A stretch of DNA of 49,612 nt from Erysipelotrichaceae bacterium (GTDB lineage: Bacteria > Bacteroidota > Bacteroidia > Bacteroidales > P3): assembly GCA_963588535.1 (NCBI GenBank), contig CAVAII010000035.1, positions 1 to 49,612 of the forward strand, read 5' to 3'. The position numbers and the translations under genes were made by a program. Below the pieces are notes generated by a model. It was not told where the DNA came from and did no database searches. It was given only the letters and a program-made list of their open reading frames with translations. Shown here in pieces: positions 37,691 through 38,821 of this stretch (the first letter of the stretch is position 1; each line of letters opens with the position of its first letter).

Positions 37691-38821
37691 TTGTTTGATG
37701 TTGATGGAACTTGGATTTATGGAAAGAATAAACAATATGTAACAAGATTTTCACAACAAGTACCAAATAGCATTCCTGTTATAAGTGGGGTTACTATAAA
37801 TAATGGTGTAAATTATTATACAGTAGATAAATTGATGGATTACGAAATATTTTCGGATTGTTTAACAATTTCTACGAGAGGTGAATATAGTGGGACTGTT
37901 ACATACCATGAAGGTGATTTTGTGTTGGCAAATAATATTTTAACAATGCCTATGCCTAATTGGTCAAAAAAGGCAAAACTTTTTATTGCCTCATCTCTTA
38001 ATGCTCTCCCTTATGGTGGATATAGTGGGTATCCTCGTAAAGAGACTTTAAAAAATGATATTATCCTCCTTCCTATTACTTCTGCTGGTACAATTGATTT
38101 TTACTTTATGGATGAGTTTATAAGCGAACTGGAACAGGAGCGAATAAGCGAACTGGAACAGGAGCGAATAAGCGAACTTAAAGCCTACTTGAAAGCAACA
38201 GGACTTGATGATATCACACTAAATGAAGAAGAATTGCAAGCAATAGATAAATTTTATCGGGGGGGGGTAAAATGGAAAGAATATCAGTTAGATACGCTGT
38301 TTGATAAGGTAAAAGTAGTAAAATTGCCACAAAAAGTAAATGATTTACCTACAACACCAAACAGAGAATATTGTTTGCCTGTACTAACGGCTGGAATACA
38401 AAATCAAGGTTTGTCTTGTTATGCTCCGAAAGAAAATGCAACTATTTTGAAGAATATTATTTCTATATCGGCCAATGGTGCTAATACAGGAGCAACATTT
38501 TATCAAAGCAAAGAATTTACAATTTTGCAAGACGCGTATGCTATTAAATGGAAATATACTGATAAAATGCCTAATGAAGAACAATCTTTGTTTTTGGTTA
38601 CGAGTATTTCTAAACGAATTTATGGAAATTATCAATGGACAAATAAAGCAGGTTGGGAAAAAATAAAGTCTAATGTTATCTATCTACCTATAATCGATAG
38701 TAATGAGATAGACGTTGCTTTTATGGGGATATTTATCCGTGCTATTGAGAAGTTGGTAATAAAAGATGTAGTAGATTATGCGGACAAGAAGATCGCAACA
38801 ACAAAGCAAGTAGTTGGATAG
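37691..38821 (+). CDS. Restriction-modification specificity (S) subunit, HsdS/BcgIB-like; the true N-terminus probably lies upstream of the listed TTG
   Basis: Two TRD-like halves separated by a coiled-coil conserved region (ISELEQERISELEQERISELKAYL). The frame is open from 37592 and encodes EVKWGKFRIGDLFDV before the TTG at 37691. There is no ATG or GTG in 37592-37690. Confidence 0.75.
   Translation: MFDVDGTWIYGKNKQYVTRFSQQVPNSIPVISGVTINNGVNYYTVDKLMDYEIFSDCLTISTRGEYSGTVTYHEGDFVLANNILTMPMPNWSKKAKLFIASSLNALPYGGYSGYPRKETLKNDIILLPITSAGTIDFYFMDEFISELEQERISELEQERISELKAYLKATGLDDITLNEEELQAIDKFYRGGVKWKEYQLDTLFDKVKVVKLPQKVNDLPTTPNREYCLPVLTAGIQNQGLSCYAPKENATILKNIISISANGANTGATFYQSKEFTILQDAYAIKWKYTDKMPNEEQSLFLVTSISKRIYGNYQWTNKAGWEKIKSNVIYLPIIDSNEIDVAFMGIFIRAIEKLVIKDVVDYADKKIATTKQVVG
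38120..38178 (+). repeat. 24-bp tandem repeat x2.5 in the central conserved region of the S subunit
   Basis: ATAAGCGAACTGGAACAGGAGCGA at 38120-38143 and 38144-38167, then the partial copy ATAAGCGAACT. Encodes ISELEQER twice, then ISEL. Confidence 0.9.
38259..38267 (+). repeat. Homopolymeric G9 tract inside the S-subunit gene
   Basis: TAT CGG GGG GGG GTA AAA; nine consecutive G in an AT-rich gene, lying just after the central repeat region. Confidence 0.95.

What the first reader, a model, noticed from the sequence alone, without database searches (positions are those of the whole stretch)
38259..38267. G9 homopolymer inside the specificity subunit: candidate phase-variable switch of R-M specificity
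Nine consecutive G (TAT CGG GGG GGG GTA AAA) sit in a gene that is otherwise very AT-rich, immediately after the central coiled-coil region and at the start of the second TRD. Reading the sequence, loss of one G gives CGG GGG GGG TAA, an immediate stop. Gain of one G gives a stop after about 12 further codons (..GKMERISVRYAV*). Both slipped alleles would therefore produce a half-size S protein (TRD1 + central region). Established knowledge: poly-G/poly-C tracts of 8 or more are classic slipped-strand phase-variation switches in R-M genes (phasevarions). Truncated half-HsdS proteins can dimerise and impose a new, symmetric recognition site rather than simply switching the system off.
Basis: partly seen in the sequence, partly recalled or inferred. 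Interest (0 to 1): 0.65.

Follow-up and report, generated by a model that had tools for sequence, protein, structure and literature searches.

The report
Poly-G switch in restriction specificity gene
A run of nine G's sits between the two DNA-reading halves of the specificity gene of a BcgI-like restriction-modification system, at the same spot where Helicobacter pylori relatives are known to switch by G-tract slippage, so it is a new example of a known switch; the same locus also carries a conserved, apparently undescribed ribosomal-frameshift signal that would fuse the enzyme to its specificity subunit.

Summary
G9 lies at 38259-38267 and is the only G/C run of 7 or more in 49.6 kb (about 0.02 expected). 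G9 is in frame, G8 stops at once (RGG-TAA), and G10 stops 12 codons later.

The gene is not a Type I hsdS. It is the S subunit of a two-gene BcgI-like Type IIB system: a 681-aa nuclease+methylase (RM) protein plus S, with no HsdR. The RM protein is 59% identical to the RM of an H. pylori locus that I take to be HP1471/HP1472 (Hpy99XXII).

In that published system, a poly-G tract between the two TRDs varies in length within single-colony cultures and gives methylated and unmethylated subpopulations. I found G/C tracts at the same linker in about 12 lineages, in both ON and OFF states. In one Bacteroidaceae homolog, 18 contigs with identical flanks of about 430 and 447 nt differ only in the tract. 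No close relative of this window's locus exists in the collections, so its own variability is inferred.

Verdict: a new member of a known kind. Whether the half-size S retargets the enzyme or just switches it off remains open.

Noticed in passing: the RM/S junction carries a conserved -1 frameshift cassette (slippery heptamer, stop codon, covarying hairpin), and S has no start codon. This implies an RM-S fusion. I found no published description.

The parts
35586..37631 (+). RM gene: 681-aa fusion of an N-terminal PD-(D/E)xK nuclease and a gamma-class N6-adenine methyltransferase (A subunit of a BcgI-like Type IIB system).
   Evidence: Pfam N6_Mtase matches residues 363-608 only. P58 D59 ... 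E77 Y78 K79 and N486 P487 P488 Y489 are invariant in 12 homologs. 59% identity over the full length to the RM ORF of H. pylori locus L094.
37622..37628 (+). Slippery heptamer G_GGA_AAA, the last 7 nt of the RM ORF, followed directly by the stop TAG at 37629-37631.
   Evidence: An X_XXY_YYZ heptamer abuts the RM stop in 67 of 69 relevant unique junctions. The terminal Gly codon is GGA in 62/62 loci, against 27% GGA at 31 other invariant Gly columns. The third base of the preceding codon always equals X.
37635..37671 (+). Hairpin 6 nt downstream of the heptamer (arms 37635-37645 and 37661-37671, 15-nt loop); candidate frameshift stimulator.
   Evidence: Window fold -18.8 kcal/mol, z = -4.0. Across 62 loci 97.3% of cells are paired, 5 of 12 pairs show compensatory changes, and 0 of 500 shuffles reach the observed values. 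The hairpin is degraded in single-ORF RM-S relatives.
37628..38821 (+). S (specificity) gene in the -1 frame of RM: TRD1, central helix, linker, TRD2, C-terminal helix. It has no ATG/GTG/TTG before the conserved KWGKF motif; the first canonical start, TTG 37691 (first start listed by the ORF finder; P0001, the window's own called protein, has the matching 376 aa), lies inside the conserved KWGKFRIGDLF motif.
   Evidence: Pfam Methylase_S.
38120..38178 (+). Perfect 24-bp x 2.5 tandem repeat (ISELEQER) in the central helix.
   Evidence: It is an 8-residue insertion relative to 8 homologs. Copy number is 1.5, 2.5 or 3.5 among family members.
38259..38267 (+). G9 homopolymer in the inter-TRD linker (codons CGG GGG GGG G..): the candidate slipped-strand switch.
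38268..38270 (+). TAA abutting the tract; it becomes the in-frame stop in the G8 (and G11) allele.
   Evidence: A stop triplet abuts the tract in 5 of about 12 lineages.
38302..38304 (+). TGA that terminates the G10 (and G7) allele after the out-of-frame tail GKMERISVRYAV.
38861..38900 (+). Terminator-like hairpin plus T-run closing the RM-S operon.
   Evidence: No terminator-like site was found on the + strand between RM and S.

Best explanation
The G9 run is a hypermutable slipped-strand tract in the linker between the two target-recognition domains (TRDs) of the S subunit gene. The gene belongs to a BcgI-like Type IIB restriction-modification system: an RM protein plus S, carried by an uncultured Bacteroidales bacterium.

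With G9 (or G6, G12) the full S protein is made (TRD1, helix, TRD2, helix), and the (RM)2S enzyme methylates and cuts around one asymmetric bipartite site. Gain or loss of one G during replication puts TRD2 out of frame. G8 stops immediately at the abutting TAA; G10 stops after a 12-codon tail. Only TRD1 plus the central helix is then made.

The most likely consequence is reversible loss of activity at the bipartite site in a subpopulation, as published for the H. pylori homolog Hpy99XXII. This relaxes the restriction barrier and changes the methylome. A less likely outcome, about one chance in three, is that two half-S chains pair through the central helix and redirect the enzyme to a palindromic site, as NgoAV does in Type I.

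Shown here: the tract, its frame logic, the system type, the recurrence of tracts at this linker, and tract polymorphism in homologs. Inferred: that this particular tract varies, and what the truncated product does.
For: 1. The tract is real, unique in the window, and written in the host's rarest codons. It is a 2-residue insertion in a linker.
2. System type. The RM protein has invariant PD...ExK and NPPY motifs. No HsdR is present here or in related loci. It is 59% identical to the RM ORF of an H. pylori locus that matches the published BcgI-like HP1471/HP1472 (PMC3936762). The S alignment puts the H. pylori G tract at the same linker.
3. In 80 related loci (105 kb of S-gene DNA), the only G/C runs of 7 or more besides the window's are two, both in this linker and both out of frame: L043 with G10 and L012 with C7.
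4. A motif-anchored scan found 20 genomic and 26 metagenomic loci with G8-G15 at this linker. They come from about 12 lineages (H. pylori, Bacteroidaceae, Chitinophagales, Pelobium, Selenomonas, Eubacteriales, Gallibacterium and others): 23 ON, 19 OFF.
5. Eighteen contigs of one Bacteroidaceae homolog have 100% identical flanks (about 430 and 447 nt). They differ only in the tract: G9 in 13, G10 in 2, and 3 interrupted variants.
6. The nearest tract-region relative, L084, is 78% identical in nucleotides and has G12 at the same place, out of frame.
7. Literature. G14 versus G13 between stocks (PMC3936762). Within-colony length variation with a matching unmethylated subpopulation (PMC4490391). 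The tract described as 'directly between the two TRDs' (PMC4209511).
Against: - There are no direct data on this locus. No close relative or read data are available, and the nearest S homolog is 46% identical.
- The window has no other G/C tract of 7 or more, so there is no sign that this organism uses poly-G contingency loci generally.
- Bacteroidales are presumably mismatch-repair proficient (my own knowledge), so switching should be slower than in H. pylori.
- Differences between assemblies at homopolymers can include sequencing error.
- For the retargeting variant, Krebes et al. detected activity only with both TRDs, and no alternative motif was reported (PMC3936762, PMC4490391).
Confidence: 0.72

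Rival explanations
1. Specificity switch rather than on/off. The TRD1-only product dimerises through the central helix and, with RM, imposes a new palindromic recognition site. The tract would then toggle between two active enzymes.
For: - NgoAV precedent in Type I: the truncated 208-aa HsdS recognises GCAN8TGC and the fused form GCAN7STCA (PMC9577141).
- Family members with two near-identical halves exist (P0002-P0004), so a symmetric S is tolerated.
- A stop triplet abuts the tract in 5 of about 12 lineages, giving a clean truncation.
- In H. pylori both the deletion mutant and the locked-ON HP1471 mutant colonise mice poorly while the wild type (OFF, TRD1 only) colonises, so the truncated form is not equivalent to a null (PMC4209511).
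- S genes truncated at this linker by other routes also occur: nonsense codons in L020 and L070.
Against: - In the homologous Hpy99XXII, activity was seen only with both TRDs expressed (PMC3936762).
- Single-molecule data show an unmethylated subpopulation, and no new motif was reported (PMC4490391).
- For another H. pylori S subunit, a half-site palindrome was not methylated (PMC3936762, JHP1422).
- The truncated product lacks the C-terminal helix that normally pairs with the central helix.
Confidence: 0.3
2. A fixed, non-switching feature. The G run simply encodes a Gly-Gly linker insertion, or is a neutral slippage remnant, and is stably G9 in the population.
For: - The allele in the window is in frame.
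- No variation data exist for this locus.
- There are no other long G/C tracts in the window.
Against: - Writing R-G-G as CGG GGG GGG has probability about 4e-5 under the host's codon usage.
- Tracts recur at exactly this linker in many lineages and nowhere else in 105 kb of S genes.
- Homologous tracts are polymorphic while their flanks are identical.
- L084 has G12 at the same site, out of frame.
Confidence: 0.12
3. The S gene is a decaying pseudogene: it has no start codon and two in-frame stops after the vestigial 'MGS' start. The tract would then have no functional consequence.
For: - The S frame has TAG TAA at 37592-37597 and no ATG/GTG/TTG before the conserved KWGKF motif.
- Krebes et al. 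read the same feature in H. pylori as a cause of inactivity (PMC3936762).
Against: - The 397-codon frame is intact, including through G9.
- 28 of 66 unique junctions across phyla equally lack any start codon, yet keep a slippery heptamer, a stop and a covarying hairpin.
- The native H. pylori J99 system does methylate its site (PMC4490391).
Confidence: 0.08
4. Sequencing or assembly artefact, for example poly-G artefacts of two-colour Illumina chemistry or a miscalled homopolymer length.
For: - The window is a metagenome-type contig.
- Homopolymer lengths are error-prone.
Against: - The tract is internal and in frame, flanked by conserved coding sequence on both sides.
- It occupies the same site as tracts in L084 and many other assemblies made on different platforms, including complete H. 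pylori genomes.
Confidence: 0.03

Closest known systems
H. pylori BcgI-like Type IIB system HP1471/HP1472 and JHP1364/JHP1365 (Hpy99XXII, TCAN6TRG)
   Same: Same protein family: RM is 59% identical over the full length and S aligns. Same two-gene RM+S layout. Poly-G tract at the same linker between TRD1 and TRD2. A stop triplet (TAA) abuts the tract. There is no ordinary S start codon: the published account reports no potential start codon, and my loci show only a GTG overlapping the RM stop. A slippery heptamer precedes the RM stop. Phase variation is documented (PMC3936762, PMC4209511, PMC4490391).
   Different: The host is an uncultured Bacteroidales bacterium, not a mismatch-repair-deficient Campylobacterota pathogen. 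The tract is shorter (G9 against G8-G15) and its flanks and TRDs are unrelated, so it arose independently. The heptamer is G_GGA_AAA rather than C_CCA_AAG. The window also has an extra 8-residue helix repeat. I infer that loci L085-L102 are the HP1471/HP1472 orthologues from their architecture and tract; I did not check this by accession.
NgoAV Type I system of Neisseria gonorrhoeae (polyG in hsdS1)
   Same: A homopolymeric G tract at the end of the first half of an S gene decides between a half-size and a full-size S subunit. Both forms are active, with different specificities (PMC9577141).
   Different: NgoAV is a true Type I system (HsdM, HsdS, HsdR), not homologous at the system level. Its common allele is the truncated one. 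Retargeting has not been shown for any BcgI-like system.
BcgI and BsaXI (archetypal Type IIB enzymes, (RM)2S)
   Same: An RM fusion polypeptide plus a separate two-TRD S subunit; bipartite recognition is expected (PMC3592470, PMC11997821).
   Different: There is no detectable sequence similarity to solved BsaXI chains. The fold comparison was inconclusive because the model was poor. Cleavage pattern and stoichiometry are untested. I found no report of a poly-G tract or a frameshift cassette for BcgI or BsaXI; my searches were keyword searches of the held library.
Bacterial -1 programmed frameshift cassettes (dnaX, IS3-family transposases)
   Same: An X_XXY_YYZ heptamer with a stem-loop 6 nt downstream, and a -1 frame ORF with no start of its own, giving a short product and a C-terminally extended fusion. 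A GGAG-like stretch lies 9-12 nt upstream in many of the junction sequences printed (seen by eye, not counted), as in dnaX (my own knowledge).
   Different: Here the 0-frame stop abuts the heptamer and the fusion partner is a DNA-specificity subunit of a restriction enzyme. No trans-frame protein has been observed. I found no report of it in the library.
EcoR124I / EcoR124II TAEL repeats in the HsdS central region
   Same: In-frame tandem repeats in the central helix of S whose copy number differs between relatives. In EcoR124 this changes the spacer length of the recognition site (my own knowledge).
   Different: The unit here is 8 residues (24 bp) rather than 4. The effect on the spacer is untested.

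Membership tests
BcgI-like Type IIB R-M system (RM + S) | One polypeptide carrying both a PD-(D/E)xK nuclease motif and a gamma-class N6-adenine methyltransferase motif (NPPY) | tested here: met
   P58-D59...E77-x-K79 and N486-P-P-Y489 are invariant in 12 homologs. Pfam N6_Mtase covers only residues 363-608 of 681.
BcgI-like Type IIB R-M system (RM + S) | Separate S subunit with two TRDs and two conserved helical regions | tested here: met
   Pfam Methylase_S gives two matched stretches. The alignment shows TRD1, helix, TRD2, helix.
BcgI-like Type IIB R-M system (RM + S) | No HsdR-type helicase/translocase subunit in the operon | tested here: met
   The neighbours are an Eco47II-like R gene with a C5 methylase, AAA_25, DUF6371, a small membrane ORF and a T9SS protein. 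Related loci L001 and L002 are also two-gene.
BcgI-like Type IIB R-M system (RM + S) | Homology to an experimentally characterised member | tested here: met
   59% identity over 681 aa to the RM ORF of H. pylori locus L094. The H. pylori RM+S pair with a G tract between the TRDs is described as BcgI-like HP1471/HP1472 in PMC3936762. Orthology of L094 is inferred.
BcgI-like Type IIB R-M system (RM + S) | (RM)2S assembly; cleavage on both sides of a bipartite site | not testable with these tools
   This needs biochemistry. The AF2 model was poor (pLDDT 52). Foldseek hits were HsdM-type methylases and BsaXI RM (rank 9), all with TM about 0.2.
   The partner is a 681-aa nuclease-methylase fusion and no HsdR is present. 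The S domain family PF01420 is shared by both system types.
Simple-sequence contingency (phase-variable) locus | Homopolymer of 8 or more inside a coding region, with the frame deciding the product | tested here: met
   G9; the G8 and G10 alleles are truncated.
Simple-sequence contingency (phase-variable) locus | Tract-length polymorphism between otherwise identical sequences | tested here: inconclusive
   For this locus there is no close relative in any collection. For homologs the feature is met: 18 Bacteroidaceae contigs differ only in the tract, two further clusters show G9/G10 and G9/G8, and H. pylori shows G8-G15.
Simple-sequence contingency (phase-variable) locus | Switching within a clone, with a matching phenotype (methylome) change | not testable with these tools
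   Shown only for the H. pylori homolog (PMC4490391).
-1 programmed ribosomal frameshift cassette | X_XXY_YYZ heptamer in the 0 frame, conserved at the nucleotide level | tested here: met
   Heptamer types seen: GGGAAAA, GGGAAAG, CCCAAAG, AAAAAAA and AAATTTT. GGA is used 62/62 times against 27% at control Gly columns. The base at position X covaries with the heptamer type.
-1 programmed ribosomal frameshift cassette | Stimulatory RNA structure 5-9 nt downstream, supported by covariation | tested here: met
   A 12-bp stem with a 6-nt spacer. 97.3% of cells are paired, 5 pairs carry compensatory changes, 0 of 500 shuffles reach this, and slid controls pair at 33-50%. The stem is lost in single-ORF relatives.
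-1 programmed ribosomal frameshift cassette | The downstream ORF lacks its own initiation site | tested here: met
   28 of 66 unique junctions, including the window, have no ATG/GTG/TTG before the conserved Trp. Only 8 have a start codon at the junction.
-1 programmed ribosomal frameshift cassette | A trans-frame fusion protein is produced | not testable with these tools
   This needs reporter assays, western blots or mass spectrometry.

The most novel reading that the evidence does not exclude
This widespread BcgI-like family does not translate its S subunit from a start codon. A conserved -1 programmed ribosomal frameshift (G_GGA_AAA, then the stop, then a 12-bp hairpin) at the end of the RM gene would make S as an RM-S fusion alongside plain RM.

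In this window, two recoding layers would then act on one operon. A translational frameshift sets the ratio of RM to RM-S, and a mutational G9 switch decides whether the fused S carries one or two TRDs. The operon would yield three proteins: RM (681 aa), RM-S (1078 aa) and RM-half-S (894 aa).

This would be the first programmed frameshift described in a restriction-modification system. It would also explain why the H. pylori homolog was judged to have 'no start codon' yet is active in vivo.
Probability: 0.55. Interest if true: 0.8.

Novelty: new member of a known kind. Interest (0 to 1): 0.45.

Why it matters
The G9 tract extends a switch known from H. pylori, a mismatch-repair-deficient pathogen, to uncultured gut and rumen Bacteroidales. 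In that group, phase variation of restriction specificity is usually attributed to invertase shufflons (my own knowledge).

The tract sits at the same inter-TRD linker in about a dozen lineages. This suggests repeated selection for populations that hedge between a full restriction barrier and a relaxed or retargeted one, which bears on phage defence, gene flow and methylome heterogeneity in gut communities.

Annotation matters too. These S genes are routinely called with wrong starts or as fragments.

If the frameshift cassette is functional, it gives a new way to fix subunit stoichiometry in a restriction enzyme. It would link two-chain and single-chain Type IIB enzymes, and it is directly testable with a 70-nt reporter.

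Tried and rejected
- **Exact-flank searches for other alleles of this locus.** Genome contigs and metagenome contigs both gave 0 hits. The protein search found no S relative above 46% identity apart from the window's own protein. Strain comparison for this locus is therefore impossible with these data.
- **RM relatives by single-protein scan.** This returned one truncated contig. An alignment-based scan was needed to get usable loci.
- **PDB sequence searches.** The RM protein alone, an RM profile and an S profile gave no hits.
- **NCBIfam.** Only a far sub-threshold MADS2 methylase hit, so I rejected filing the system under MADS.
- **Structure prediction.** The AlphaFold2 model of RM from a shallow alignment was poor (pLDDT 52). 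Its Foldseek matches (HsdM-type methylases, BsaXI at rank 9, TM about 0.2) are not used as membership evidence.
- **Rfam.** No family matches the junction or the tract region.
- **Two apparent 'LGK-I...' in-frame fusions.** P0244 and P0242 come from a 1x-coverage contig and from a contig with another frameshift. I dropped them as evidence. The single-ORF relatives with different linkers (P0119/P0241, P0245, P0247-P0249, P0300) are kept.
- **Transcriptional slippage at GGGAAAA.** Rejected because a run of four A is too short (my own knowledge).
- **An upstream S start at the 'MGS' codon.** Rejected. That NTG is a by-product of the RM motif A-W-E, and in the window it is followed by TAG TAA.
- **Literature on frameshifting in restriction-modification systems.** Searches found nothing.
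Full report
**1. The observation**

The sequence reads ...AAATTTTATC GGGGGGGGG TAAAATGGAAAG..., with the nine G at 38259-38267.

I simulated the slipped alleles:
- G8 and G11 stop at the abutting TAA, right after RGG or RGGG.
- G7 and G10 read (G)GKMERISVRYAV and stop at TGA 38302-38304.
- G9 and G12 keep the full frame.

This is the only G or C run of 7 or more in the 49.6-kb window, where 0.017-0.024 runs of G>=9 are expected. 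The window's own ORFs use GGG for 7.5% of Gly codons and CGG for 0.7% of Arg codons. The amino acids R-G-G would therefore be spelled CGG GGG GGG with probability about 4e-5.

**2. What the gene is**

The ORF carries two Methylase_S stretches. It aligns along its whole length with S subunits that are at most 46% identical overall.

The tract lies in the linker after the central helical region and just before the start of TRD2 (W-K-E-Y-Q-L-D-T-L-F). It is a 2-residue insertion absent from all 8 aligned homologs.

The upstream gene (35586-37631) encodes 681 aa. Only its C-terminal half is an N6-adenine methylase. Its N-terminal part has an invariant P-D...E-x-K nuclease motif, and NPPY is invariant as well.

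No HsdR is nearby. Related loci are also two-gene units. This is the architecture of BcgI-like Type IIB systems, which assemble as (RM)2S (PMC3592470, PMC11997821), and not of Type I.

The RM protein is 59% identical over its full length to the RM ORF of H. pylori locus L094. That locus matches the published description of the BcgI-like HP1471/HP1472 and JHP1364/JHP1365 (Hpy99XXII, TCAN6TRG; PMC3936762). Orthology of L094 is inferred from architecture and tract, not checked by accession.

The host is an uncultured Bacteroidales bacterium. Its ribosomal protein S1 is 89% identical to that of rumen MAG RUG501, and T9SS CHU_C proteins are present. The system sits in a small island together with an Eco47II-like R gene, a C5 methylase, an AAA_25 protein and a DUF6371 protein.

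**3. Is the tract a switch?**

Direct evidence for this locus cannot be obtained here. Exact-flank scans of the genome and metagenome collections found nothing. The 15-billion-protein collection holds no close relative, full-size or half-size.

The indirect evidence is strong.

(a) In 80 related loci from many phyla (105 kb of S-gene DNA), the only other G/C runs of 7 or more are two, both in this same linker and both out of frame. L043 has G10 and would be ON at G9. L012 has C7 and would be ON at C8.

(b) A scan anchored on the conserved I-D-[FY]-x-F-M-[DE] motif, followed 118-148 nt later by G8, returned 20 genomic and 26 metagenomic loci.
- Tract lengths run from G8 to G15: 23 are ON, 19 are OFF and 5 are unclear.
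- They fall into about 12 lineages, including H. pylori, Bacteroidaceae, Chitinophagales, Pelobium, Spirosomataceae, Selenomonas, Eubacteriales and Gallibacterium.

(c) Eighteen contigs of one Bacteroidaceae homolog, mostly metagenome contigs plus one MAG contig:
- have 100% identical flanks of 432 and about 447 nt (one, L116, is identical only downstream of the tract);
- differ only in the tract: G9 in 13, G10 in 2, and 3 interrupted variants.

Two further clusters show G9/G10 and G9/G8.

(d) The nearest relative of the window in this region, L084, is 78% identical in nucleotides. It has G12 at the same position and is out of frame.

(e) Published work on the H. pylori homolog:
- G14 in the reference genomes against G13 in laboratory stocks (PMC3936762).
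- Read-level length variation above control homopolymers, even in single-colony cultures, with a matching unmethylated subpopulation at TCAN6TRG (PMC4490391).
- An explicit model in which the tract 'directly between the two TRDs' decides whether one or two modules are translated (PMC4209511).

I conclude that the G9 is very probably a contingency tract of a known kind (confidence about 0.7).

**4. What the slipped alleles do**

This remains open.

For Type I NgoAV, a polyG tract in hsdS1 toggles between a 208-aa half-S (GCAN8TGC) and a fused full-length S (GCAN7STCA) (PMC9577141).

For the BcgI-like homolog, methylation was detected only with both TRDs (PMC3936762), and only an unmethylated subpopulation was reported (PMC4490391). 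On the other hand, deletion and locked-ON mutants both differ from the wild type, which is OFF, in mouse colonisation (PMC4209511).

Features here that fit a functional half-S:
- A stop triplet abuts the tract in 5 of about 12 lineages.
- Some family members have two near-identical halves.
- Truncation at this linker also arises by nonsense mutation, in L020 and L070.

I commit to on/off as the more likely outcome (about 2:1). The half-S retargeting is the main rival.

**5. How S is expressed (found while checking the gene start)**

The S frame has no ATG, GTG or TTG before the conserved KWGKF motif. The vestigial 'MGS' codon is followed by TAG TAA. S is in the -1 frame of RM. The RM gene ends TTG GGA AAA TAG, so the heptamer G_GGA_AAA abuts the stop codon.

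*The heptamer is conserved at the nucleotide level.* Among 69 relevant unique junctions, 67 carry an X_XXY_YYZ heptamer at this place:
- GGGAAAA in 53, GGGAAAG in 8, CCCAAAG in the 5 H. pylori loci, and AAAAAAA in 1.
- L084, found separately, has AAATTTT.

The terminal Gly codon is GGA in 62 of 62 loci, against 27% GGA at 31 other invariant Gly columns of the same proteins. The third base of the preceding codon always matches X, whatever amino acid it encodes (L, P, S, E or V). At 42 control Leu columns that base is G only 28% of the time.

*A hairpin follows.* Six nucleotides downstream lies a 12-bp hairpin:
- 97.3% of cells are paired, and 5 pairs carry compensatory changes.
- One synonymous Leu third base covaries with the first base of a Lys/Glu/Gln codon (UA 41, CG 14, GC 1).
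- 0 of 500 shuffles reach the observed values, and slid controls pair at 33-50%.

In the window the fold is -18.8 kcal/mol with z = -4.0.

*S often has no start codon.* 28 of 66 unique junctions have no canonical start anywhere before the conserved Trp. Only 8 have ATG or GTG at the junction.

*Single-ORF relatives lack the hairpin.* Natural single-ORF RM-S relatives exist. In five of them the hairpin is degraded: 5-9 of 12 positions pair, and folds are -5.6 to -10.7 kcal/mol.

*Assessment.* This is the anatomy of a -1 programmed frameshift cassette that would yield RM plus an RM-S fusion. The main alternative is termination-reinitiation at the ATA, GTA, ATG or GTG codon overlapping the stop. 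That alternative does not explain the nucleotide-level conservation of the heptamer.

Krebes et al. noted the missing start codon and took it as a reason for inactivity (PMC3936762). Yet the native J99 system methylates its site (PMC4490391).

I found no description of frameshifting in a restriction-modification system:
- keyword searches returned nothing relevant;
- a term search of a 2016 review found no mention, though only the first 300,000 of its roughly 430,000 characters are held;
- a term search of the main text of the GeneTack survey also found none.

Rfam has no matching family. No protein evidence is available, so this stays a well-supported hypothesis (about 0.55 that it is both real and undescribed).

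**6. Verdict**

The finding is real, and its core interpretation holds by homology and by recurrence of the tract. It is a new member of a known kind, the poly-G switch in the S gene of a BcgI-like system, in a new host group.

- the system type is BcgI-like Type IIB, not Type I;
- the retargeting claim is unproven;
- S is expressed in an unusual way.

The frameshift cassette is the part of this locus most worth an experiment.

Noticed in passing
window 37622-37672 (heptamer 37622-37628, stop 37629-37631, hairpin arms 37635-37645 / 37661-37671); the same place in L001-L129: A conserved -1 frameshift-like cassette at the RM/S junction: an X_XXY_YYZ heptamer abutting the RM stop, then a covarying 12-bp hairpin 6 nt downstream. 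S is in the -1 frame and has no start codon in 28 of 66 unique junctions. This implies an RM-S fusion protein. I found no report of it in the literature.
   Followed up: yes
window 38120-38178: A perfect 24-bp x 2.5 tandem repeat (ISELEQER) in the central helix of S. Homologs carry 1.5, 2.5 or 3.5 copies of the equivalent 8-residue unit (L070). This probably tunes the spacer of the recognition site, as the TAEL repeats of EcoR124I/II do, and it could itself vary by slippage.
   Followed up: partly
window 38268-38270; L085-L102, L092, L101, L105 cluster: A stop triplet (TAA, TGA or TAG) directly abuts the 3' end of the G tract in 5 of about 12 lineages, so one slipped phase ends with no out-of-frame tail. 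This may be selection for a clean half-S product, or it may reflect shared ancestry of the flanks.
   Followed up: partly
L020, L070, L050, L006 (S genes of related loci): S genes are also cut at or near the inter-TRD linker by other routes. L020 and L070 have in-frame nonsense codons with an intact TRD2 still in frame. L050 has a frameshift after the helix. L006 is truncated earlier, within TRD1, where the homologous sequence ends.
   Followed up: partly
window 37583-37597 and position -57 in many loci: The apparent S start 'MGS' (NTG GGA AGT) used by gene callers is a by-product of the conserved RM motif A-W-E-V read in the -1 frame. In the window it is followed by TAG TAA. S-gene starts are therefore unreliable in automatic gene calls: gene calls for L001/L002 use this codon, and the window's own called S protein (P0001, 376 aa) matches a start at TTG 37691.
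   Followed up: yes
window 39031-39056 (inside minus-strand ORF 38998-39381): A (TTGT)6.5 microsatellite, perfect, inside the C-terminal tail (..ETNKQTNKQ..) of a 127-aa predicted membrane protein just downstream of the S gene. This is another potentially slippage-prone repeat.
   Followed up: no
window 30154-35413: An Eco47II-like restriction gene with a C5 cytosine methylase, followed by an AAA_25 protein and a DUF6371 protein carrying 21-nt tandem repeats (34285-34500). Together with the BcgI-like pair they form a defence or mobile island between rpsA and a T9SS-signal protein.
   Followed up: partly
window 9108-11075: A single 655-aa ORF joining a complete phosphoglycerate kinase (residues 4-388) to a short-chain dehydrogenase domain (residues 405-625).
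   Followed up: no
window 21056-21139 and 20654-20827: A perfect 42-bp x 2 tandem repeat and several 21-bp repeats, in a region overlapped by ORFs on both strands (19748-21262 on +, 20950-21444 on -) that have no Pfam match.
   Followed up: no
L216 about 200-300: In a single-ORF RM-S relative (P0241), the RM part is itself split by a frame change near the codons for KEINKKIL. This may be an error or another slippage site.
   Followed up: no
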